A DNA stretch of 22,172 nt from the IMG/VR virus record IMGVR_UViG_3300008952_000024; one strand, given 5' to 3'. Position 1 is the stretch's first letter, and the number at the start of each line of letters is the position of its first letter. A model generated the notes under the pieces. That model was not told the origin of the DNA. It saw nothing but the letters and a program-made list of their open reading frames with translations, and did not search any database. Both the position numbers and the translations under genes were made by a program. This document shows, in pieces, positions 12,279 through 22,172 of this stretch. The DNA is from an uncultured virus (IMG/VR IMGVR_UViG_3300008952_000024) (taxonomy: Duplodnaviria > Heunggongvirae > Uroviricota > Caudoviricetes).

Positions 12279-13067
12279 TTATTCTGCCGCTATAGTCTCA
12301 CCCTCATTTAATATTGAGTGCTTATCTTTCAATTGATTGGCTGTTACAAGCGCACCTAAAATTGCCATTATCTCCTGCGAATCTTCATACATAGCCTCCA
12401 GAAGATCTGTCCCTTGGAGCTTCGCCTGACGGACCCGTACAGACTCTACAAGAATAGTATTATTGTTGGCAACCGCTGTTGAGTCTGTCATCTCATCGCG
12501 TACCTTGAGTAGTGCTGGAAGGTCGCGCATTGTGCATCTGATCTCCCCTGCCGCAATACGCCTAGCAAGAAGCCCAAGAGCACCATCCACCAATTGAAGA
12601 TGCTGTTGCTTAATCTTCTTTTTTCTGCGCTCCTCATCGGCAGTGGTCTTATCAGGCATTACCGCCTTACTCACTTCCTCTGCGACAGACATTGGAACTG
12701 GCGTATCAGGTAGGAATGGAGTAGCCAATCTGCCCTCAACTTCGACTATCTCGCGCAGTTTATAAATTTTATAATACTTTGCTCGGTAAATCGCGGCAGC
12801 AGTCATATCTGGCAATGAAACTTTATCGACTCGAGCTTGCCAGCTCCATCGTTTTTTCCACTGACGCATCAGACCATCAGATCTTTGGATCGCCCTAGAA
12901 GCAGCACGCGCACTGCGTCTACCCGGCTCCTGCATTGTCCAAAGGAGAAAGCACCTATAAGCCAAATCCGGCTCACCCTTCAACTGATTGATTGGTGCGT
13001 CAACTTTCTTAATATTCGCAGGTCTACCTGCACGCCTAACAGAGTTTCTTTTATCTTTAGCGGCCAT
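12279..13067 (-). CDS. Terminase small subunit-like HTH protein
   Basis: EPDLAYRCFLLW...GRRSARAASRAIQRSDGLMRQWKKRWSWQARV resembles the 'E...AY.AF..Y...G..RS...VA.....S...I.RW...W.W..R' pattern of phage TerS-like proteins (recalled). Helical C-terminal region. Confidence 0.55.
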   Translation of the reverse strand: MAAKDKRNSVRRAGRPANIKKVDAPINQLKGEPDLAYRCFLLWTMQEPGRRSARAASRAIQRSDGLMRQWKKRWSWQARVDKVSLPDMTAAAIYRAKYYKIYKLREIVEVEGRLATPFLPDTPVPMSVAEEVSKAVMPDKTTADEERRKKKIKQQHLQLVDGALGLLARRIAAGEIRCTMRDLPALLKVRDEMTDSTAVANNNTILVESVRVRQAKLQGTDLLEAMYEDSQEIMAILGALVTANQLKDKHSILNEGETIAAE

Positions 13068-13489: not shown

Positions 13490-15244
13490 TCAATTCGTAC
13501 TCCTGCTAGACACCGGAACTAAATCATAAAGTATCCACATTCGTAAACCCAAAACAGCTTTTCCCGGTTCTATGGATATTTTTTCGACGGTGGCGGATAT
13601 TGGATCTTTGGTAATTGTTTCATCATATAAAATTACGTTATCACCTAATGCTAATTGCAAATATACAGAAGCAAAAGCATCATATTCAGCATAATAAGAC
13701 GGGAGCGTATAATGCTGGACGTACCAATCAATTACATGATTTGCTTGCCAATCATTGGTTATAGAATTTGGTGCACCAAGCAACGATGCTGTAGATGGTA
13801 TTACCTTACTTTCAAGCACATCCATCTCACGAGTACCCGCCTGATTAGCACTTAAAGCACACAAGGTACTATTAGACGCATCTCGACTAATTAGACCTCT
13901 ATGCGTATCGGTCATTGCATCATAATCAAAGTTAATCGTAAAACGATTCTTCAACTCTTCCTTGGCTGTTTCAGTAATAGCTGTACGCCGCTTAATTAAT
14001 GGGTACTGGCCCACCCGCAACTCCATCACCGGTTCAACCCGCCTATCATAATAGACAGGCCCATACCCCCCATCCTGCCACGCCATTGATACCATCGGGT
14101 ATGACTTACAAAGCACATCCTCAATGTACTTTATGGCCGTTGCGGAATTTGTGTTACCAGACGCATTTAATAAAACTGATGGTATAAGTGAAATGGCTTG
14201 CTTCGACATTGCACGGCTAAACATATCTTCATTGATGTTGGCCAAGCCAAGCGTAGACCACTCTACACACAAATAACGTATAACCTCAATTAACGTAATT
14301 TCTGTCCCATCGGGAGACTCGCCACCATCAATGGATGCTGGAATATATACAGTATCGCTATCTTCCCAGACCCCAGTACCACCTGTTACAAAATTGTACT
14401 GAAAGAATGATACGTTTTGTGTTTCCCCAAGTGAAATATTATAGGGATAACCGGCATCGCCGGGATTCTTCTCTTCCCCGTTGACATAAGCGTTCTTTTG
14501 AAAATGCTGTCCAAGTGGTGAGTGGAAACCAACAAATACTACGTCATTCCCAATTGAAGGTGGGAGATTGTACACTCGTACGCACGGAACAGTTGACACA
14601 TTATTAATCGCCATCGGTATTCTATACCCCAGATTATTCTCTGGCATATCTGGCCAATCTTCGGTAGTTAGGCGTACTACGGGTATTTGGAGATCATCAA
14701 TGTCTTTTGGATCTACAATTTCCAAATCTAACATCTCATCTTCGCCGCCGAACCTAACCCCGCCATTCATGTCGCCTTTTAAGATTACCCATCTATCTTC
14801 CCACCACTGTCCGTCTACCTGTAGTGAAATTTCACCATAGCCAGCTAGAAACCGTCGTGATTTCAATATAGAATAAACATCAATATCAAGCTGCGAAACA
14901 TTCAATGTGAAAGATCTGGCAGATGATGAGCCACCACCCATACTTACCACATTTTGAATGGCAGGAGCCTTAACCAGTAACGGCTTGTACGCAACGGTCG
15001 CCTCATTTCCAGGAGCCGATGATGAGAGTTTTTTTCTACTGGATATTGCTTTTGTAGAAACATTTATAGTTTCACCATTACCAAAAACAAGTTCAACACA
15101 TAAACATACAGACTCCATCATTGGGTCTAGTTTTAATATGTTCTTCCAAAAGGTAGAATTTCTTGGTTGGTGATGGGTAAGGCTTTTGCGCCACTTTTGG
15201 GTAGACCAATAAGAATAAATACGTGTTTGTGGCTCCCAGACCAT
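13490..15244 (-). CDS. Tail-tip/baseplate hub (Tal-like) protein
   Basis: 584 aa, second gene after the tape measure. Beta-rich, with C-terminal NRFTINFDY and LQLALGDNVILYD...TVEKISI typical of hub proteins. Coupled to the upstream gene by TAATG. Confidence 0.6.
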   Translation of the reverse strand: MVWEPQTRIYSYWSTQKWRKSLTHHQPRNSTFWKNILKLDPMMESVCLCVELVFGNGETINVSTKAISSRKKLSSSAPGNEATVAYKPLLVKAPAIQNVVSMGGGSSSARSFTLNVSQLDIDVYSILKSRRFLAGYGEISLQVDGQWWEDRWVILKGDMNGGVRFGGEDEMLDLEIVDPKDIDDLQIPVVRLTTEDWPDMPENNLGYRIPMAINNVSTVPCVRVYNLPPSIGNDVVFVGFHSPLGQHFQKNAYVNGEEKNPGDAGYPYNISLGETQNVSFFQYNFVTGGTGVWEDSDTVYIPASIDGGESPDGTEITLIEVIRYLCVEWSTLGLANINEDMFSRAMSKQAISLIPSVLLNASGNTNSATAIKYIEDVLCKSYPMVSMAWQDGGYGPVYYDRRVEPVMELRVGQYPLIKRRTAITETAKEELKNRFTINFDYDAMTDTHRGLISRDASNSTLCALSANQAGTREMDVLESKVIPSTASLLGAPNSITNDWQANHVIDWYVQHYTLPSYYAEYDAFASVYLQLALGDNVILYDETITKDPISATVEKISIEPGKAVLGLRMWILYDLVPVSSRSTN

Positions 15245-18200
15245 TACACTTCTTCCTCAAGCGTAATAGCCATATCGCCAGCCTGTTTCCAAATATCTAT
15301 ATCAGCAGCTGGGGAGTTAGATTTTGTTTGTTGATACCACGCGGCATTATCCAACTGTGATCCACTGGTGATACGTCCGAGAATTACATTATCTGGATCA
15401 GCATATGGCGCATACCTCGTGGCGGTGGCATCTGTGTCATCTAACACTAATACTACTGGCCTCGTTTCGTATTGGGTATGGCTTCGAAGTAACTGTCGTA
15501 GCGTATCTCGCTGCTCCTGACTCACATCTCCAACAAGCCTACCAGTAATTGTACGTTGAGGTGGTCCCTCTGGATATGCCCAAGATAATCCGCCCTTGGT
15601 TTTGTAATTTGTAACATTTGGCTGTTCATTACTTGTGGAGGTCCATTCAAGAGGCACCTCAAGCGATTCCTGAATACCAACAATTATAGTACCTACGGAC
15701 AACGCTTCATTAGTAGCATTTCCCAAGTCACGATCGCCAGTAATCTCAATGTATCTATTGCTCTGTATACCGTCATTTTTATATACCCATCTACCTGAAA
15801 ATACAGTGATCGCTGATAACGTGCCAAGCAACGTAATATCAAAATCGGTATCTAATATTAGATGATACTCGGTATCTGATATTCGTATACATTCAACAAT
15901 ATTTGCGGTTCTAGTAAAGACAGTTGGAGGAGAGCCAATAGTGCCTCCTAGATTCACATAAAATGGTTTGCCCTCACTTGTGTTCCACTCCGCGTTCTCT
16001 GGCATATAGCCCGGTCCACCACCAAGCCTCACAACGACCTTATTTGGTGACTCCATACTTAAAATATCGGGACTAAAGGCTCTAGAAATATATGTCTGGT
16101 GGGTGGGTACTACCGTGTTCCATGTCACCTTATCCTCTGATACACGGATTCCAATATTACCAATATTTGAGTTAAATGCAGCAATACAATTCCACTTAAA
16201 CTTGGTCATTGTATTGTCTGGGTCGGCCACAAGTACTACCTTGAACGTATCAGACGAGGATCGGGTCAGGTCTAATTTGGATCGATATTGTAATCGCGGA
16301 GATGGCAAGGTAAGGTTTTCTGCGCCATATTGATATTTTGTAAGACCATTAAAGTTGTCTCCAGAAAATCCAGAAGCACCACCCCATCTAGCACTAATGG
16401 CATACCCCATATTAATTGGGTTTCCCGTTATCAGGCGACCCCGCAAATGTTGAGGCCAATCGGTATCAATATCATACGCTCGAAACTGGCTTAAAGCACT
16501 ATTCTTGATTTTACCCGCACTACCACCACGCTCTTCGGACTTAAATACATTAATAGACCTCCAATTTGATCTTCTATCCATATGAGGAGTACCCCCCGGA
16601 CTATTAGGAAGGTGTCCAAAACGTAATATTTGTATAATTGAAGCTACCGTTGTTTCAGTTACTGTAAATGGCCCTACACGTTGCCATTCCCGAATCCCGG
16701 CTTCATCATATCCGCTAACGGTCTTTAGAGATAACATTACTTGGGTTTCTAAAGAAGGAGCTAAATAAGTACCAACATTAACAGATGCAATACTTAACCG
16801 TATACGATTAAAGACCGCCATATTTGCGTTTATAAACGATGCCTCTATTGGAGTTGGGCCAGCATTTACATCAATTAAAGCAATGCCATTATTCGCTATA
16901 ACGACTCGTAAGTAGACGGCTTGCCTTACACCAGAAGTATGATCTGACGCATTTACATCAAAAAATATAGTTGCATCATAACTTATCATTACATTATCAT
17001 ACCCATACTCTGTCTTTACTTCTGCTTCAATAACAACCCCGCCCTGCTGGTCGGTGGTTGGCATCCATGTTGGTTGAGCATCGGAAGGAGCAGTAGTAGA
17101 CCACGCAGTATCATCAAGTTCATTAATATAGGATTGTGCGAAAAATCCAGTATTATCTGAAAGTCGCTGTCTCCACGAATTATAACTACTCGTTACCTGA
17201 CTAACTGTTCTTGTCCAAGGAGTGCCGGGAGACACATTACCGCCAGCACCAGCCACTAATCCAAATGGTATATGCCATCCCACAATTGGAAGTGGGTAAG
17301 GATCTGACTCTGAATACAAATTTGGAGTGCTTTCGACTCTATAATCGGTATAATTTGCAATCGGCGACATGTCCCAACCACCAAGCCGAAAATAGATCGT
17401 TCTGTTGTCTGCTGTGAATAATGATGGATCATCGGTCGCATCTATGGCACCCGCAAAAAACGATAAATATTTATGGCAGTTTATAAGGTTCATATAGCAA
17501 GGAACAAACCTAATCGTTCCCTGCGACCCAGTAAGATAATTATTGCTATACCAGTCGCCCAATGGCGCATTTGGATCTATACGGAATAAAACAAATTCCC
17601 AACCGGTACGATGCCAATCTACAAGCCCAAGCGTCGGCACAATATAATAACAAAGTATTAACCAATAATAATCCTGACCACGAACCGACGTAATGTGTGC
17701 TTTCATCATCGCACTAGGAACACCAGTACCTTTAGTCACATTAGCATTTACAAATGCACCTGTACCTGTTGCAATCCCAGTCTGTAGCCGCTGTAGGGAA
17801 TCCATCCAATGCAATAAAAATGTACCAGAGTCATCCCGAAGTCCAGCCATAGTATAAACATGCTGATCTATACTGTCGCCATTCTCCACGATTGCTGGTG
17901 TAAAGGCTAACTCTGGTTCCAACCAAGATGCCCCGCCATCACCAGATACAATAGTTCTAAAATAGTTCGTGGTAGTTCCCTCTATCAAATCAATCCAAGC
18001 AAGACGAAGATAATCGCCACTACCATCCATCTTTACGGACTCATAGTTTATTGGAAACGTATCTAAATATTTAGATGCCACATCAGCAGATAATAATTCC
18101 CACTTTAATCCGTCTTCCGACCACCATATATTAATGTCATTGCGATCAGTTCTGCTCATCATGCGTAGGGTGCCATCACCCATAGCACAAACTTTGAATA

Positions 18201-19677
18201 CATCTAATGTATACCCAATACCCCAAAAGTCTTTCCGATTAAAATTAATAGTTGTTTGGGTCCATCCCCCGTTAGCCTGATCAATATTTCTATACGCAAC
18301 ATTGATTGTTGCCACATCGCCAACTGTATCCTCTGCTGTATAAATTACTTCCCGATTTAACCGTGGGATAAACGCGCCAGAAGCAGCATCCCCGCCAGTC
18401 GCAAGCAGCCCCCCGTGTGAAAAATGGACATAACGTTCTTCATTGTACCCATAATAATTTTTATTGGCTTCAAAACCATCACCGGAATGTAAGCTATTTA
18501 CATCACCTACCCATCCAAGCGGGACATGCATAGTTGGATCAACATATAGTCTTAAATTTCCACTTGTTGCCGTTAATTTTAACCTTGTAGTACCATCTAG
18601 TGATGCTGTGATCCCATGTATACTGGTCCGTGCGTTAATTGCATTACGCAACGCACTAGTTCCATCATTCGTCGTAAATACAAATGGGCCGGGACCAACA
18701 AGATCAAAGTCATTTATAAGAAGCTGTCCACTAAAAATTGTTCCACCCGCTATCTGGGATCGAAAGATTATTTCAGAATTGATCCCTAAAACACCAGAAA
18801 TATCACTAGATGGTCGTAGGTCGATATGCGTATTACTAGAAAGTGTAATACCAGCTCTATGAATAGTAGCTGTTGCCCCCGTCCACCCTAATCCCGCTGC
18901 CGCCGCCGCATCTACAAACAACCCTAAACTTGCCCCAGTGTCTAGGTTGACATCGGTTCCAGTCAACACAAGAATCCGATCTGTACCCGTTGAACCAGTG
19001 GAAACTGTACTAGCGGTAATGCCATGTGTTCCAGTATGCGCATTAATAGCATTACGCAACGTGCTCGTACCATCATTAACAACGTATGCAACTGGACCCG
19101 CGCCATTCAGTAAGTCCACATCATTGATAACTAGTTCACCATTGTCCAACGTACCACCGGCTATGCGAACATCAAACACAATTTCGGCTGCATTACCGGT
19201 TGCGGTTACTCCGTGAAGTTCAGTGTTTTCATTAATCGCAATCGCTTTTGCCAAAGCGGAAGTGGCTGGCTGAACAAGCAGAGGGGTGTAGGGATCTTTA
19301 TACCTAGTAAGCGGAGTCTCTACATCATTTACCACCAATTGAGTCCCTACAGTTATCTCGCTTGATCCTACTTTATCGGATACTATCGTACCAACAGTGC
19401 TTGTTTTATTTGGCCTATGTGCCCATGTTCCACCATTAATCCCACCAGCAACCTGAACACGAAAATCAAACTTCTTATCCTCATCAGTTAATGTAATGAA
19501 GCCGGGTTCGACATATTTTCCCTGCATAGTAGCAACAAGACTTCCTCGATTATCATTTTCGGAATCTGTAGGCCCAACATATTCACCTGCCGCTACGGGT
19601 TCGATTGAATCAATATTTTTACTACCAGTCAGACAAGGATCTGGAAAAATAATATAACTATTAGGCCCACCTGACAT
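15244..19677 (-). CDS. Large multidomain tail-tip protein: flagellin-IN-like repeats, Asp-box region, beta-sandwich region, Dit-like C-terminus
   Basis: 1477 aa, G/T/S/N-rich, directly after the tape measure. Three 'IND/VND...AIN..T..HG(I/V)TA' units; Asp-box-like SEDGLKW, SGDGGASW and SEDKVTW; C-terminal TKGG...PQRTITG...RPVVLV...ITLEEEV. Confidence 0.75.
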   Translation of the reverse strand: MSGGPNSYIIFPDPCLTGSKNIDSIEPVAAGEYVGPTDSENDNRGSLVATMQGKYVEPGFITLTDEDKKFDFRVQVAGGINGGTWAHRPNKTSTVGTIVSDKVGSSEITVGTQLVVNDVETPLTRYKDPYTPLLVQPATSALAKAIAINENTELHGVTATGNAAEIVFDVRIAGGTLDNGELVINDVDLLNGAGPVAYVVNDGTSTLRNAINAHTGTHGITASTVSTGSTGTDRILVLTGTDVNLDTGASLGLFVDAAAAAGLGWTGATATIHRAGITLSSNTHIDLRPSSDISGVLGINSEIIFRSQIAGGTIFSGQLLINDFDLVGPGPFVFTTNDGTSALRNAINARTSIHGITASLDGTTRLKLTATSGNLRLYVDPTMHVPLGWVGDVNSLHSGDGFEANKNYYGYNEERYVHFSHGGLLATGGDAASGAFIPRLNREVIYTAEDTVGDVATINVAYRNIDQANGGWTQTTINFNRKDFWGIGYTLDVFKVCAMGDGTLRMMSRTDRNDINIWWSEDGLKWELLSADVASKYLDTFPINYESVKMDGSGDYLRLAWIDLIEGTTTNYFRTIVSGDGGASWLEPELAFTPAIVENGDSIDQHVYTMAGLRDDSGTFLLHWMDSLQRLQTGIATGTGAFVNANVTKGTGVPSAMMKAHITSVRGQDYYWLILCYYIVPTLGLVDWHRTGWEFVLFRIDPNAPLGDWYSNNYLTGSQGTIRFVPCYMNLINCHKYLSFFAGAIDATDDPSLFTADNRTIYFRLGGWDMSPIANYTDYRVESTPNLYSESDPYPLPIVGWHIPFGLVAGAGGNVSPGTPWTRTVSQVTSSYNSWRQRLSDNTGFFAQSYINELDDTAWSTTAPSDAQPTWMPTTDQQGGVVIEAEVKTEYGYDNVMISYDATIFFDVNASDHTSGVRQAVYLRVVIANNGIALIDVNAGPTPIEASFINANMAVFNRIRLSIASVNVGTYLAPSLETQVMLSLKTVSGYDEAGIREWQRVGPFTVTETTVASIIQILRFGHLPNSPGGTPHMDRRSNWRSINVFKSEERGGSAGKIKNSALSQFRAYDIDTDWPQHLRGRLITGNPINMGYAISARWGGASGFSGDNFNGLTKYQYGAENLTLPSPRLQYRSKLDLTRSSSDTFKVVLVADPDNTMTKFKWNCIAAFNSNIGNIGIRVSEDKVTWNTVVPTHQTYISRAFSPDILSMESPNKVVVRLGGGPGYMPENAEWNTSEGKPFYVNLGGTIGSPPTVFTRTANIVECIRISDTEYHLILDTDFDITLLGTLSAITVFSGRWVYKNDGIQSNRYIEITGDRDLGNATNEALSVGTIIVGIQESLEVPLEWTSTSNEQPNVTNYKTKGGLSWAYPEGPPQRTITGRLVGDVSQEQRDTLRQLLRSHTQYETRPVVLVLDDTDATATRYAPYADPDNVILGRITSGSQLDNAAWYQQTKSNSPAADIDIWKQAGDMAITLEEEV
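18505..19190 (-). repeat. Internal protein-level duplication (~95-110 aa, two copies) of a flagellin D3-like domain
   Basis: AEIVFDVRIAGGTLDNGELVINDVDL...NDGTSTLRNAINAHTGTHGITAS...LFVD...LGWTG versus SEIIFRSQIAGGTIFSGQLLINDFDL...NDGTSALRNAINARTSIHGITAS...LYVD...LGWVG. DNA identity is patchy (shared GCATTACGCAACG), so the duplication is old. Boundaries are approximate. Confidence 0.9.
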
Positions 19678-19686
19678 GCCTCGCCC

Positions 19687-22172
19687 CTATGAACTCTTGG
19701 TCCAGTAATTAAAACGTCCGCGATCTAATCCTACAGTAACACCCGACGCTCGTGTTAGCTGTTTTGTAATACCGGGTGCATTGCCTCGCCTCATAGCGGT
19801 CACCTGTACCGCATCCAACAAGCGCCCCTCGGCCATAATAGCAATGTCTATAGGTGCTGACTGGCCCATAGAACCCGGTCCACCCGCACCGGCGAGGGGC
19901 TGCTGTGCTCCACCTCTGGAACGGGCTGCATTTCTATCTGCCGGTATAATTGCTTCGCCTTTGTGTACATTTACCCGCATATTTGATGGGACATAATTAA
20001 TGCCGGAATAAAAGCTATCTAGGCCCATTTCACCTATATATGCATCTTTCAGTTGTTCCTCTGTCTCGTTAGCTCTAGCGGCACGCCGCTCCTTCGCCTT
20101 CTTTTTCCCTTCTTTACCCCTAAACAAATCACCAATTGCTTGACCAATCTGCTTCATACCTTCTATGATAGCCATTAATGCAGATGTAACTATCATGCTG
20201 ACTATCTTTGGAATTGCTGGAAGAAGCTCCTTAAAGAACGCAGTAAAAAATGACGCAATAATATTTGGGATCATTTTAACGATCCCTATAACAATCCTTG
20301 GTATCAATGCGAGAACGGCACCAATCAACTTTGGCAACATTGATAATAACTCTACCAATATTGCTGGTAACGCCTCAACAATCGCACCAATAAGCATTGG
20401 GATAGCGTCAAATAAATGATCCAAGATGTCTGGTATGGCTTGTAGTAATGATATAGCTACACGCATTACCAATCGAACTAATGCCGGAAGCAACTCTGGC
20501 AACGCACCAATAACGGCCTCGAGCACTATTGGAATAATCCCAACAATTTGCTCAATAAGAACTGGAAGCGTATCCGCCAGCTGCAAAATGATTTGAACCA
20601 ATCCAGCCAATAATGCATCTAATATTGCTGGTAATTCCGCAATGATCGCATCTAGTATTTCTGGAAGTGCTGCAATTATGGTGGTGATTGCATCTGCCAA
20701 CACCGTCGCAAGGTTAGGTAGGGCACTCAATACCGCTGTTATCATCGCCGGGATGTTATCTACTATGACTTTAACTAGGTTGCCGATATTATCCGCGAAA
20801 CCCTGAATGATCTGTGGGACCATCTCCACAAATTCATTGAATAGCCCCGGCAACTGGGCCGTAAGCTCTTGCAGCAACGCCGGAACAGCGGCTACCGCCA
20901 TTTTCATAAAGCCCGTGGCCTTACTAACTAATTCCGTTACCTTTTTAGCAGCCTCCGCTTTAACATCCATTGTCGCACCCTTGGATGCCATTTCAGAAGA
21001 TGCAGCAGCGAACTCACTTACAATCCCACGCAAATCAAATTCAAAACCAGTAAAAAACTTAAATGTTTCCGCACCCTTCTTGGCTATAGCGGTCATTCCC
21101 TTAATAGTTGCTGCTATGGCCTTCCCAATATCCCCGATCACCTTGATGATCTTTCCTACCTTCTCCTTCCATATGGCAAAGGCTTCGTTAGCCATCTCCG
21201 CTTCTGCCATTTTTTGTTCGTCACGAGTCAAGGTGTCTTTTAGTGCCTTATACTCCCGACGCTTTTCATCTAATTTATGCTCACGTTCCTTCATTTTTGC
21301 GCGGGACTTCAAGAACTTCTTAAAAATCCCAAAACCTGCACGCTCGGACAATAGCTCTAACTTCGTAGCTTTACGACCCCGATCTCGTATACTCTTTAGG
21401 GTTGCAAACTCCTCTTTTGCGAGTTGGCGCAACTTTAATTTATAAATATTTTTAGCAATCTCCAGTTGGGCTTTGGACGCATGAACTTTACGCATCTCGT
21501 TTACACGTTTTGAATACTCTAATTGCAACGCCAGTCGTGGACCCATCAGTGCTTTGGCTAAATCTTCTGCCTCCCCTTGAAGGGTGTCGCGAAATTCCTC
21601 GCGGGCCTTTGCCTCAATTGCTCGCTCACGATTCGCTTGCGTTTCTCGTAGTTTAGCTCTGGCCTGTGCATAAGCATAATCAATATCCATCCGCTCTAAT
21701 GCACCTTCCTCGTACATTTCCACAGCTTTGTCTCTTTGGAGTTTTAGATCAGCTAACTCGGCCTGATTTGCTACCTTCCGCTTCTCTTTTTCTGTTAATG
21801 CTGCATTTTCATGATCTTCTGCAACCAGCTTCTCTCGCATCTGTCTCATTTCAGAATAAAATTCTGCTATCGACTTGGTAATTATATCTTCGCGCGTTCT
21901 TATAGCTTGCCGCTCTATCTCTTCACGTTTCGCATGGCCCTCTTTATAAAGTTTAGTAGTTTCATCAACTAACTTTTGGTGTGCTTCCAGCTCATCTTCT
22001 AGTTGAAATCTCCTTTCCAATAATCCATGACTATCTAAAAGTCTTTTTTCACGAGCCAACTTTTTCTCAAATTCTGCTAACTTGAGTTCCGCCTTCATGC
22101 GCTTTTCAACTAGTTTTTGATGCTCTTTGCTGACCCGCTCATCCGCATCCGCCTTCTCATTGGCAACTCGTA
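19687..22172 (-). CDS. Tail tape measure protein, 5'-truncated by the window edge
   Basis: The frame stays open upstream of the track's ATG (22098) to the window end. Charged coiled-coil region, then amphipathic repeats with Pro mostly every 11 residues (LPAILDALLAG-type), and a C-terminal FYSGINYVP...VHKGEAIIPA motif typical of tape measures. Confidence 0.9.
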   Translation of the reverse strand, partial: RVANEKADADERVSKEHQKLVEKRMKAELKLAEFEKKLAREKRLLDSHGLLERRFQLEDELEAHQKLVDETTKLYKEGHAKREEIERQAIRTREDIITKSIAEFYSEMRQMREKLVAEDHENAALTEKEKRKVANQAELADLKLQRDKAVEMYEEGALERMDIDYAYAQARAKLRETQANRERAIEAKAREEFRDTLQGEAEDLAKALMGPRLALQLEYSKRVNEMRKVHASKAQLEIAKNIYKLKLRQLAKEEFATLKSIRDRGRKATKLELLSERAGFGIFKKFLKSRAKMKEREHKLDEKRREYKALKDTLTRDEQKMAEAEMANEAFAIWKEKVGKIIKVIGDIGKAIAATIKGMTAIAKKGAETFKFFTGFEFDLRGIVSEFAAASSEMASKGATMDVKAEAAKKVTELVSKATGFMKMAVAAVPALLQELTAQLPGLFNEFVEMVPQIIQGFADNIGNLVKVIVDNIPAMITAVLSALPNLATVLADAITTIIAALPEILDAIIAELPAILDALLAGLVQIILQLADTLPVLIEQIVGIIPIVLEAVIGALPELLPALVRLVMRVAISLLQAIPDILDHLFDAIPMLIGAIVEALPAILVELLSMLPKLIGAVLALIPRIVIGIVKMIPNIIASFFTAFFKELLPAIPKIVSMIVTSALMAIIEGMKQIGQAIGDLFRGKEGKKKAKERRAARANETEEQLKDAYIGEMGLDSFYSGINYVPSNMRVNVHKGEAIIPADRNAARSRGGAQQPLAGAGGPGSMGQSAPIDIAIMAEGRLLDAVQVTAMRRGNAPGITKQLTRASGVTVGLDRGRFNYWTKSS

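What the first reader, a model, noticed from the sequence alone, without database searches (positions are those of the whole stretch)
18505..19360. Phage tail-tip protein carries flagellin outer-domain (D2/D3, 'IN motif')-like modules
Seen in sequence: three related units, QLVVNDV...SALAKAIAINENTELHGVTAT, ELVINDV...NDGTSTLRNAINAHTGTHGITAS and QLLINDF...NDGTSALRNAINARTSIHGITASLDGTTRLKLTATSG. Established knowledge: the hypervariable D2/D3 domains of many flagellins and FliD carry the Flagellin hook IN motif, of the form ING...D..G.L..AINA....TGV.AS.D..G.L.L. From memory, unit 3 tracks Campylobacter/Helicobacter-type flagellins closely. The layout also looks nested as in flagellin: half of unit 1, inserted unit 2, a return strand (AGITLSSNTHIDL), then a second D3-like copy. 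The conserved D0/D1 helices are absent. Inference: the phage captured the surface-exposed part of a bacterial flagellin and displays it at the tail tip. It might dock onto host flagellar filaments through flagellin-like self-contacts, or reuse the flagellin's adhesin activity. This would be an unusual receptor-binding strategy and a direct clue to the host.
Basis: partly seen in the sequence, partly recalled or inferred. Interest (0 to 1): 0.85.

Follow-up and report, generated by a model that had tools for sequence, protein, structure and literature searches.

The report
Flagellin outer-domain cassette in phage tail protein
A large tail protein of an uncultured long-tailed phage really does carry a stretch related to the surface-exposed middle part of bacterial flagellins, but the same module also occurs in non-flagellar proteins, and nothing yet shows that it binds flagella or names the host.

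Summary
The 1477-aa ORF (15244-19677, minus strand) lies directly after the tape-measure gene. Residues ~96-400 hold three related units, and Pfam Flagellin_IN scores above its curated cut-off.

The similarity extends beyond the short motif. Residues 91-288 align colinearly, at 33% identity over 200 columns, with the whole outer region of a bona fide flagellin. In fold searches the confident part of an AlphaFold model matches Helicobacter and Campylobacter flagellins best, then FliD, and only then phage sheath insertion domains. No D0/D1 helices are detected.

Unit 3 is an intragenic duplicate of unit 2. It is absent from a relative that is 30% identical.

The cassette is present in all relatives found, so it is old in this lineage. 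The same cassette also occurs in long non-flagellar proteins. Donor, host and flagellum binding therefore remain open.

Most likely the modules are exposed Ig-like adhesion or decoration domains under purifying selection. The rest of the protein has no recognisable family, and its model failed.

The parts
15244..19677 (-). Gene for the 1477-aa post-tape-measure protein (P0001). It is the presumed tail-tip or minor tail protein.
   Evidence: ORF. It starts 10 bases after the tape-measure ORF ends. The order major tail, tape measure, this gene is the same in relative L003. The whole protein has no PHROG match, and Flagellin_IN is its only Pfam match.
19393..19677 (-). N-terminal region, residues 1-95. 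It is the most conserved part of the protein and a possible docking part (inference).
   Evidence: Identity to P0003, P0004 and P0008 is 94, 81 and 39%. It was not modelled; pLDDT is ~25.
19183..19392 (-). Unit 1 ('A' type), residues 96-165, carrying SALAKAIAINENTELHGVTAT.
   Evidence: It aligns to SAIAKAATINRGSATHGVTA of flagellin P0012 and to the SAIAKA.AIND..TGV.AT units of P0005 and P0006. It is only weakly seen by the B-unit HMM (E 0.0025), and Pfam does not call it as a separate stretch.
18793..19182 (-). Unit 2 ('B' type), residues 166-295, including the return strand AGITLSSNTHIDL (275-287).
   Evidence: It is one of two Pfam Flagellin_IN stretches. pLDDT is ~80 for residues 165-240. 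Fold matches to flagellin and FliD span 160-276. It is colinear with flagellin P0012 residues 243-350.
18478..18792 (-). Unit 3, residues 296-400: a second 'B' copy made by intragenic duplication.
   Evidence: It holds the best Pfam stretch, 334-371. Units u2 and u3 of P0001, P0003 and P0004 form one clade with support 99/96, and the u3 subclade has 100/99. The unit is absent from P0008.
15244..18477 (-). Body, residues 401-1477 plus the stop codon, of unknown fold. It holds one canonical Asp-box-like motif, SGDGGASW, at 578-585 (window 17923-17946).
   Evidence: No Pfam, PHROG, NCBIfam or PDB-sequence match. The AlphaFold model has mean pLDDT 33.7. The motif is conserved in 4 of 4 family members.
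19687..22170 (-). Tape-measure protein gene, which runs off the window end.
   Evidence: phrog_5493 at E 4.1e-26, plus 10 further tape-measure PHROGs among the 16 families matched. The full ORF is 1558 aa in the identical locus L001.
13490..15244 (-). Downstream 584-aa gene, a conserved partner of unknown family.
   Evidence: Its ends are conserved with the 881-aa neighbour in L003: 37% identity over 178 columns at the N-terminal end and 46% over 285 columns at the C-terminal end. The middle varies in length. It has no family hit.

Best explanation
The gene encodes the large protein made directly after the tape measure of an uncultured siphovirus-type phage. By gene order it is part of the tail tip. 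Residues ~96-400 are a true homologue of the outer-domain cassette of Flagellin_IN-type flagellins. That cassette is an 'A' unit, a 'B' unit and a return strand, as found between D1-N and D1-C of Campylobacter- and Helicobacter-type flagellins. A second B unit was added by duplication within the gene. The D0/D1 polymerisation helices are absent, so the protein cannot be a filament subunit. The cassette belongs to a pool of roughly 100-residue beta-rich modules shared by flagellins, cap and hook proteins and non-flagellar multi-domain proteins that look secreted. Shown: the homology, the layout, the duplication, purifying selection, and presence in all relatives. Inferred: the modules project from the tail tip as exposed Ig-like domains that give weak, reversible adhesion to a host surface polymer, either a glycan or a filament. 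They would help adsorption rather than act as the sole receptor-binding site. When and from what the cassette was acquired is not resolved.
For: Family membership: Pfam Flagellin_IN scores 37.5 bits against a cut-off of 22.7.

Sequence search: phmmer of residues 67-411 against 1.84 billion representatives gave 11 hits at E <= 0.001. Two are family members. All 9 others carry Flagellin_IN above its cut-off, and 4 of those 9 have flagellin terminal domains.

Colinear matches: the segment aligns with flagellin P0012 at 33% identity over 200 columns.

Single-unit scores: with a B-unit HMM, the best scores outside the family are flagellins (54.6, 49.9, 47.6 and 41.2 bits). The best non-flagellin scores 37.7.

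Fold searches: Foldseek against PDB puts C. jejuni FlaA, H. pylori FlaB and FlaA in the top 3, at E 1.1-1.4e-04 and 22-26% identity. VIA gives Z 10.0, 8.9 and 8.6 over 155-160 residues, spanning model 96-290 and chain 173-361. A Foldseek-independent search of 48,161 chains ranks H. pylori FlaA first and FliD in the next 7 rows. Phage sheath proteins follow at Z 5.3-6.2.

Duplication. A relative without unit 3.

Selection: omega is 0.16-0.23 for the modules and 0.19 for the body in the comparison with L002.

Tail context.
Against: The N-terminal model is poor overall (mean pLDDT 47). Only residues ~165-240 and ~300-380 are confident.

Z values of 7-10 are called 'middling' by the tool's own notes.

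Pfam support is uneven in the family. P0003 passes at 37.1 bits, P0004 fails at 17.6, and P0008 has no hit at E <= 0.01.

By sequence alone, only one PDB flagellin reaches E < 0.01 (H. pylori FlaB, E 0.0098). The single-sequence PDB search found nothing.

Nothing here shows surface exposure, adhesion or a position at the tail tip. The body has no family, and its model failed.

No solved or annotated phage counterpart was found to anchor a function.
Confidence: 0.6

Rival explanations
1. Flagellum docking. The flagellin-like modules bind the host's flagellar filament through the kind of outer-domain to outer-domain contacts that flagellins make with each other. This would make the phage flagellotropic.
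For: The cassette is homologous to the part of flagellin that lies on the filament surface. Outer domains of some flagellins do contact each other in filaments; I saw this only in the abstracts of PMC8931119 and PMC10256154 in the listing. The modules are kept under purifying selection.
Against: There is no evidence of binding. The host and its flagellin are unknown. The same cassette sits in non-flagellar proteins, so it has no necessary link to filaments. In the passages read on flagellotropic phages, attachment is through short tail fibres, and no flagellin-like domain is mentioned (PMC11972413).
Confidence: 0.15
2. Structural decoration only. The modules stabilise or space the tip complex, as extra domains of tail sheath proteins are thought to do, and bind nothing on the host.
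For: The same fold occurs as an insertion domain of phage sheath proteins (XM1, Mu, E217 and A-1(L), Z 5.3-6.2). A relative works with one unit fewer.
Against: Purifying selection equals that on the body, and all relatives retain at least the A+B cassette. Both facts are compatible with this reading as well as with adhesion, so it cannot be separated from the best explanation here.
Confidence: 0.2
3. No specific relation to flagellin. The region is a generic phage insertion domain, and the 'AIN' motifs are chance or convergent.
For: Z scores are moderate, and phage sheath domains also match. The fold-level likeness of a flagellin beta-domain to the T4 gp11 finger domain is already known (PMC9751261, passages).
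Against: The Pfam score is above the curated cut-off. All 9 non-family phmmer hits out of 1.84 billion proteins carry Flagellin_IN. There is 33% identity over 200 colinear columns with a flagellin. Flagellar proteins fill the first 8 ranks of 48,161 chains. tblastn of the segment against 50,697 phage records found nothing at E <= 1.
Confidence: 0.05

Closest known systems
Outer domains of Campylobacterota flagellins (C. jejuni FlaA, PDB 6x80; H. pylori FlaB 9yh1 and FlaA 9ygu)
   Same: They are the best fold matches, covering unit 1, unit 2 and the return strand (model 96-290, chain 173-361). Z is 8.6-10.0 with 22-26% identity. H. pylori FlaB is also the only PDB sequence hit (E 0.0098). PMC11532411 (passages) describes this type as two Ig-like domains and counts 1094 entries in that structural cluster.
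   Different: The phage protein has no D0/D1 helices and has an extra B unit. The cassette sits near the N-terminus of a 1477-aa tail protein.
Metagenomic flagellin P0012 (473 aa; Flagellin_N 5-141, Flagellin_C 387-472)
   Same: It shares 33% identity over 200 colinear columns, spanning its whole outer region 169-350.
   Different: It is a true filament subunit from an unknown organism. Its nearest genome relative found is only 34% identical (Aquabacterium sp.).
FliD (filament cap) D2-D3 domains
   Same: Unit 2 superposes at Z 6.8-7.8 with rmsd ~3 A over 93-98 residues for most rows; the H. pylori FliD row (6iwy, Z 6.8) has rmsd 16.1 A over 160 residues. From recall of Pfam's description, not from a call: Flagellin_IN also covers cap and hook-associated proteins.
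   Different: Sequence identity is lower (9-21%), and there is no FliD_N or FliD_C.
Non-flagellar Flagellin_IN repeat proteins (P0005, P0006, P0007, P0009)
   Same: They use the same A and B units. P0006 aligns colinearly at 33% identity over 238 columns through the A helix, B, the return strand and the next B.
   Different: They are long proteins with other parts: collagen repeats plus DUF7151 in P0006, and FGE-sulfatase plus C-type lectin in P0009. Their function is unknown, and they are not known to be viral.
Phage sheath insertion domains and the T4 gp11 finger domain
   Same: The fold is the same (Z 5.3-6.2). The likeness of a Flagellin_IN-bearing flagellin beta-domain to the T4 gp11 finger is in print (PMC9751261, passages).
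   Different: That likeness is at fold level only. According to that paper the gp11 finger has no IN motif. Here the similarity is detectable by sequence.
Ig-like decoration domains on phage structural proteins (Fraser et al. 2006, recalled; seen only as an entry in the reference list of PMC9230969)
   Same: The concept is the same: small beta-sandwich modules shared with cell-surface proteins, added to tail or head proteins, and proposed to give weak adhesion.
   Different: To my recollection, the families described there (Big_2, I-set, FN3) are not Flagellin_IN. No such Pfam family matches here.

Membership tests
Pfam Flagellin_IN (PF07196) | Score at or above the curated gathering cut-off (22.7 bits) | tested here: met
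   37.5 bits for the whole protein and 40.4 for the fragment. Among relatives, P0003 scores 37.1, P0004 scores 17.6 (below the cut-off) and P0008 has no hit.
Pfam Flagellin_IN (PF07196) | Ile-Asn pair at the centre of the motif (as described in PMC9751261) | tested here: met
   AINE at residue 147, AINA at 210 and AINA at 346.
Flagellin (FliC/FlaA filament subunit) | N-terminal D0/D1 helices (Pfam Flagellin_N) | tested here: not met
   No match at E <= 1. Residues 1-95 are unrelated and conserved only within the phage family.
Flagellin (FliC/FlaA filament subunit) | C-terminal D1/D0 helices (Pfam Flagellin_C) | tested here: not met
   No match at E <= 1. NCBIfam 'flagellin A' scores only 12.2 bits against a cut-off of 752.
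Flagellin outer-domain cassette (Campylobacter/Helicobacter type) | Colinear similarity across the whole region between D1-N and D1-C | tested here: met
   P0001 residues 91-288 match flagellin P0012 residues 169-350 at 33% over 200 columns. Model 96-290 matches FlaA/FlaB residues 173-361 at Z 8.6-10.0.
Flagellin outer-domain cassette (Campylobacter/Helicobacter type) | Nested 3D topology, with the return strand pairing with the first unit | tested here: inconclusive
   Unit 1 and residues 268-299 have pLDDT below 50 in the model.
Siphophage tail-tip or distal tail proteins (Dit, Tal, gpJ-like) | Gene directly downstream of the tape measure in a tail module | tested here: met
Siphophage tail-tip or distal tail proteins (Dit, Tal, gpJ-like) | Sequence or fold similarity to a described Dit, Tal or gpJ family | tested here: inconclusive
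   No PHROG, Pfam, NCBIfam or PDB-profile hit for the body. The body model is unusable, with pLDDT 33.7.
Receptor-binding protein of a flagellotropic phage | Binding to the flagellar filament; infection dependent on flagella | not testable with these tools

The most novel reading that the evidence does not exclude
The phage displays a flagellin-derived outer-domain cassette at its tail tip. It uses flagellin-type outer-domain contacts to latch onto the host's own flagellar filament. This would be a receptor-binding strategy based on mimicry of the receptor's subunit, with the duplicated B unit tuning avidity.
Probability: 0.12. Interest if true: 0.8.

Novelty: new variant of a known kind. Interest (0 to 1): 0.5.

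Why it matters
Phage tail proteins often borrow small beta-sandwich modules from cell-surface proteins. A fold-level likeness between flagellin outer domains and phage baseplate or sheath domains is already in print. Here the link is detectable by sequence and covers a whole flagellin outer-domain cassette, placed in a siphophage protein next to the tape measure.

This shows that the Flagellin_IN cassette moves between filament subunits, non-flagellar multi-domain proteins that look secreted, and phage tails. It gives a concrete case for asking what the cassette binds, which is also unknown for flagellins. If the modules did recognise flagella, that would be a new receptor-binding principle.

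My four literature searches found no paper describing Flagellin_IN in a phage tail protein: 'Flagellin_IN' with 'phage', 'PF07196', 'flagellin-like' with tail terms, and flagellin with sheath insertion-domain terms. The library is incomplete, so this is not proof of absence.

Tried and rejected
1. tblastn of the whole protein (E <= 1e-5) and of residues 101-400 (E <= 1) against 50,697 phage records found no match.

2. The PDB sequence search with the fragment gave only a chance hit at E 1. A profile of the whole family gave only a chance hit at E 1.3.

3. All three word-indexed protein searches returned only the family itself: the full protein, the B-unit profile against longer proteins, and the family profile. 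The planned census of flagellin versus non-flagellin carriers therefore rests on the 11 hits.

4. Scans with the family alignments found four loci in viral contigs, three in metagenome contigs and none in genome contigs. No prophage was found, so there is no host.

5. The window's own assembly is not held. The nearest record, G001 (12.9 kb), lacks the gene.

6. The AlphaFold model of residues 400-1477, built from 5 sequences, had mean pLDDT 33.7. I did not use it for fold search, because matches would be meaningless.

7. The BFVD fold search gave only high-rmsd, low-TM matches to sheath, baseplate-J-like and fibre proteins. There was no clear viral counterpart.

8. The ESM Atlas gave nothing for residues 400-1477. 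For residues 1040-1477 it gave only unnamed viral clusters.

9. The unit tree did not resolve whether the phage units branch within flagellin units (support 48/70).

10. The Kreutzberger 2020 paper on the C. jejuni filament is not held, so the D2/D3/D4 domain names for 6x80 are not taken from it.

11. The earlier-findings index had nothing for this genome.

12. I did not run complex prediction, because no binding partner is known.
Full report
**Observation**

The window is phage DNA, and all long ORFs lie on the minus strand. From the high-coordinate end they are:
- a tape-measure protein (19687-22170, open at the window end; phrog_5493 at E 4.1e-26 and ten further tape-measure PHROGs among 16 families matched);
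- the 1477-aa ORF 15244-19677;
- ORFs of 584, 139 and 262 aa;
- replication and recombination genes: helicase, PD-(D/E)XK exonuclease, Sak4-like annealing protein, RuvC-like resolvase and primase/helicase.

The finding's coordinates correspond to residues ~107-391. Unit similarity is far beyond chance: z = 27 for u2-u3, 7.6 for u1-u2 and 9.2 for u1-u3, and 0 of 500 shuffles reached the observed score in each case.

**Is it flagellin-like?**

Pfam Flagellin_IN matches at 37.5 bits (cut-off 22.7, E 2.6e-09, 2 stretches), and the fragment alone scores 40.4 bits. No other family matched the whole protein at E <= 1, so Flagellin_N and Flagellin_C are both absent; the excised fragment had one further chance-level hit (TPIP1, E 0.046, below its cut-off). 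PHROGs gave nothing for this protein.

A phmmer search with residues 67-411 against 1.84 billion representative proteins gave only 11 hits at E <= 0.001.
- Two are full-length relatives of the phage protein (P0004, P0008).
- All other 9 carry Flagellin_IN above its cut-off.
- Of these 9, 4 have flagellin terminal domains: P0012 and P0013 have both Flagellin_N and Flagellin_C, P0014 has Flagellin_C, and P0011 has a Flagellin_C match just under its cut-off.
- The other 5 do not: P0005, P0006, P0007, P0009 and the 298-aa P0010. P0010 comes from a 1,082-base contig, and its units are nearly identical to those of P0006.
- Sources name P0011 and a cluster-mate of P0013 'flagellin-like hook-associated protein FlgL', and P0014 'flagellin'.

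**The similarity covers a whole cassette**

BLASTP aligns P0001 residues 91-288 with residues 169-350 of flagellin P0012 in one colinear block: 33% identity over 200 columns, single-pair E 3e-12. P0012 is 473 aa, with Flagellin_N at 5-141 and Flagellin_C at 387-472. The block runs through unit 1 (SALAKAIAIN...HGVTA against SAIAKAATIN...HGVTA), unit 2 and the return strand (ITLSSNTHIDL against LTLTSRQDILL). So the phage segment corresponds to essentially the whole region that a flagellin inserts between its D1 halves.

Two unit types can be told apart in the hits. The 'A' type carries SA.AKA.AIN...TGVTA. The roughly 100-residue 'B' type carries ND..G.LR.AIN..T..TGV.AS.D....L.L, then a beta-rich stretch ending in a ...L.S...I.L strand.

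**Structure**

An AlphaFold2 model of residues 1-480, built from a 4-sequence alignment, is poor overall (mean pLDDT 47). It is usable for residues ~165-240 (pLDDT ~80) and ~300-380 (~70).

- Foldseek against PDB ranks C. jejuni FlaA (6x80, E 1.1e-04, 26% identity over 155 columns), H. pylori FlaB (9yh1, 1.2e-04) and H. pylori FlaA (9ygu, 1.4e-04) first. The Sphingomonas cell-surface flagellin p5 (2zbi) and FliD follow.
- Re-alignment with VIA gives Z 10.0, 8.9 and 8.6 for those three flagellins over 155-160 residues, spanning model 96-290 and chain 173-361. FliD D2-D3 scores Z ~6.1-7.8 and Vibrio flagellins ~7.0-7.4. Phage sheath proteins (XM1, Mu, Pa193) score Z 5.8-6.0, and T7-like nozzle proteins ~4.
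- A search that does not depend on Foldseek, over 48,161 representative chains, puts H. pylori FlaA first (Z 8.6) and FliD in ranks 2-8. Phage sheath proteins follow at Z 5.3-6.2.
- The tool warns that Z 7-10 is middling, so I rely on these matches together with the sequence evidence.
- A profile of five B units finds H. pylori FlaB as the only PDB sequence at E < 0.01 (E 0.0098, residues 252-319).
- NCBIfam gives only sub-threshold 'flagellin A' matches (E 0.07, and 0.016 for P0008).

That condition is not met.

**Is flagellin the preferred relative?**

By whole-protein E-value the non-flagellin proteins P0005-P0007 lead, but they contain several repeats. Scored unit by unit with an HMM of the phage B units, the best units outside the family are flagellins: P0014 at 54.6 bits, P0012 at 49.9, P0011 at 47.6 and P0013 at 41.2. 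The non-flagellins score lower: P0007 at 37.7, P0010 at 34.1, P0005 at 33.0 and P0006 at 32.6.

Pairwise, however, P0006 aligns as well as P0012 does: 33% identity over 238 columns, colinear through the A helix, B, the return strand and the next B. A maximum-likelihood tree of 27 B units leaves the deep branches unresolved (support 48/70). The sample is small.

I conclude that the cassette belongs to a module pool shared by flagellins and other multi-domain proteins that look secreted. Those other proteins carry collagen repeats plus DUF7151 (P0006), FGE-sulfatase plus C-type lectin (P0009), and a lipoprotein-like N-terminus by eye (P0007). The donor cannot be named.

**History within the phage lineage**

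The family is rare. Beyond an identical copy, I found:
- a 91%-identical partial gene (L006);
- P0003 (73%);
- P0004, which is the gene in L002 and L005 (62%);
- P0008, which is the gene in L003, L004 and L007 (30% over 1273 columns).

All of them keep the cassette. P0008 has unit 1, one B unit and the return strand, but no unit 3.

In the unit tree the six B units of P0001, P0003 and P0004 form one clade (99/96), with the three u3 copies as a subclade (100/99). Unit 3 therefore arose by duplication inside the gene, after the split from the P0008 lineage. The cassette itself predates that split, so it is not a recent capture.

Against L002, omega (dN/dS) is 0.16-0.23 for the units and 0.19 for residues 401-880. 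The units are thus maintained by selection like the rest of the protein. They are also the least conserved part at protein level: unit 2 shows 61% and 50% identity to P0003 and P0004, against 94% and 81% for residues 1-95.

**What the protein is**

In L003 the order is Ig-domain major tail protein, a 176-aa ORF, tape measure (1509 aa), the homologue (1342 aa), an 881-aa ORF, ORFs of 139 and 268 aa, then helicase and exonuclease. This is the same order as in the window. In L001 the tape measure is 1558 aa, which implies a long non-contractile tail. No sheath gene was seen in the parts examined.

The assignment as a tail-tip or minor tail protein is therefore an inference from gene order. The body (401-1477) has no Pfam, PHROG, NCBIfam or PDB-profile match, and its model failed (mean pLDDT 33.7).

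**Mechanism**

Shown: a flagellin-type outer-domain cassette, without polymerisation helices, sits after a conserved 95-residue N-terminal part of a protein encoded next to the tape measure. The cassette is duplicated and is under purifying selection.

Inferred: the modules project from the tip complex as Ig-like domains. PMC11532411 calls the C. jejuni-type outer domains Ig-like. They would give weak, reversible adhesion to a host surface polymer, as proposed for Ig-like domains on phages (Fraser et al. 2006, recalled).

The passages I read on flagellotropic phages describe attachment by short tail fibres (PMC11972413). The Sphingomonas flagellin p5 binds alginate, but according to the review this occurs in a cleft near its N- and C-terminal parts, not in the Flagellin_IN beta-domain (PMC9751261, passages). 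It therefore gives no ligand hint for the cassette.

**Host**

No prophage copy exists in 185,579 species genomes. The nearest named relative of flagellin P0012 is an Aquabacterium sp. flagellin at 34% identity. The Campylobacterota matches reflect which flagellins of this type have solved structures. PMC11532411 counts 1094 entries in that outer-domain cluster. No host call is justified.

**Novelty**

Fold-level likeness between a Flagellin_IN-bearing flagellin domain and the T4 gp11 finger domain is published (PMC9751261). Sheath insertion domains share the fold. A sequence-detectable, complete flagellin outer-domain cassette in a siphophage tail protein was not found in four literature searches or in 50,697 deposited phage genomes by tblastn. 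I rate it a new variant of a known kind (module borrowing by tail proteins), with interest 0.5.

Noticed in passing
window 18478-19182 (residues 166-400), compared with L006:6001-8649: Between the window and the 91%-identical relative L006, synonymous divergence is 0.055 (unit 2) and 0.026 (unit 3). It is 0.32-0.68 in the flanking parts of the same gene. This mosaic pattern suggests recent recombinational exchange of the module region, or of its flanks, between related phages.
   Followed up: partly
window 17923-17946 (residues 578-585) and 18100-18120 (residues 520-526): An Asp-box-like motif, SGDGGASW, is conserved in 4 of 4 family members. A shorter form, S.DG..W, is present in 3 of 4. This hints at a BNR or beta-propeller-like domain in the body. 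Pfam did not call it, and the model failed.
   Followed up: partly
proteins P0012, P0013 and P0014 (hits): Bona fide flagellins match PHROG phrog_16088 (510 positions, 'unknown function') at E down to 1.4e-79. The phage-protein library therefore already holds a flagellin family. This fits reports of phage-encoded flagellins; I saw only the abstracts of 10.1101/2025.07.22.666180 and PMC13418256 in the listing.
   Followed up: no
PDB 8vbx_A, residues 196-232: The tail nozzle gp51 holds an IN-like stretch that aligns with the B-unit profile (...L..INAQTGTHGITAT...). The match is not significant (E 0.83). The papers that cite this entry concern Pectobacterium phage PhiM1; I saw only the listing. 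It is a possible second case of the motif in a phage tail.
   Followed up: no
proteins P0005, P0006, P0007 and P0009: These are long non-flagellar proteins built from tandem A and B Flagellin_IN units, combined with collagen repeats plus DUF7151, or with FGE-sulfatase plus C-type lectin. They form an uncharacterised class of repeat proteins that look secreted. P0006 also matches tail-fibre PHROGs weakly through its collagen part.
   Followed up: partly
window 13490-15244 (-) and L003:14026-16671: The gene downstream of the tail protein has conserved ends (37% identity over 178 columns and 46% over 285 columns) and a middle that is about 300 residues longer in L003. This is another tail protein with a variable insert and no family match.
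   Followed up: partly
window 12279-13067 (-): The 262-aa ORF has a weak match to Glyco_hydro_108 (E 0.07, below the cut-off). It may be the endolysin.
   Followed up: no
window 18464-18862 (+) and 18938-19216 (+): ORFs of 132 and 92 aa lie antisense to the repeat region. I take them to be shadow frames of the minus-strand gene and did not examine them further.
   Followed up: no
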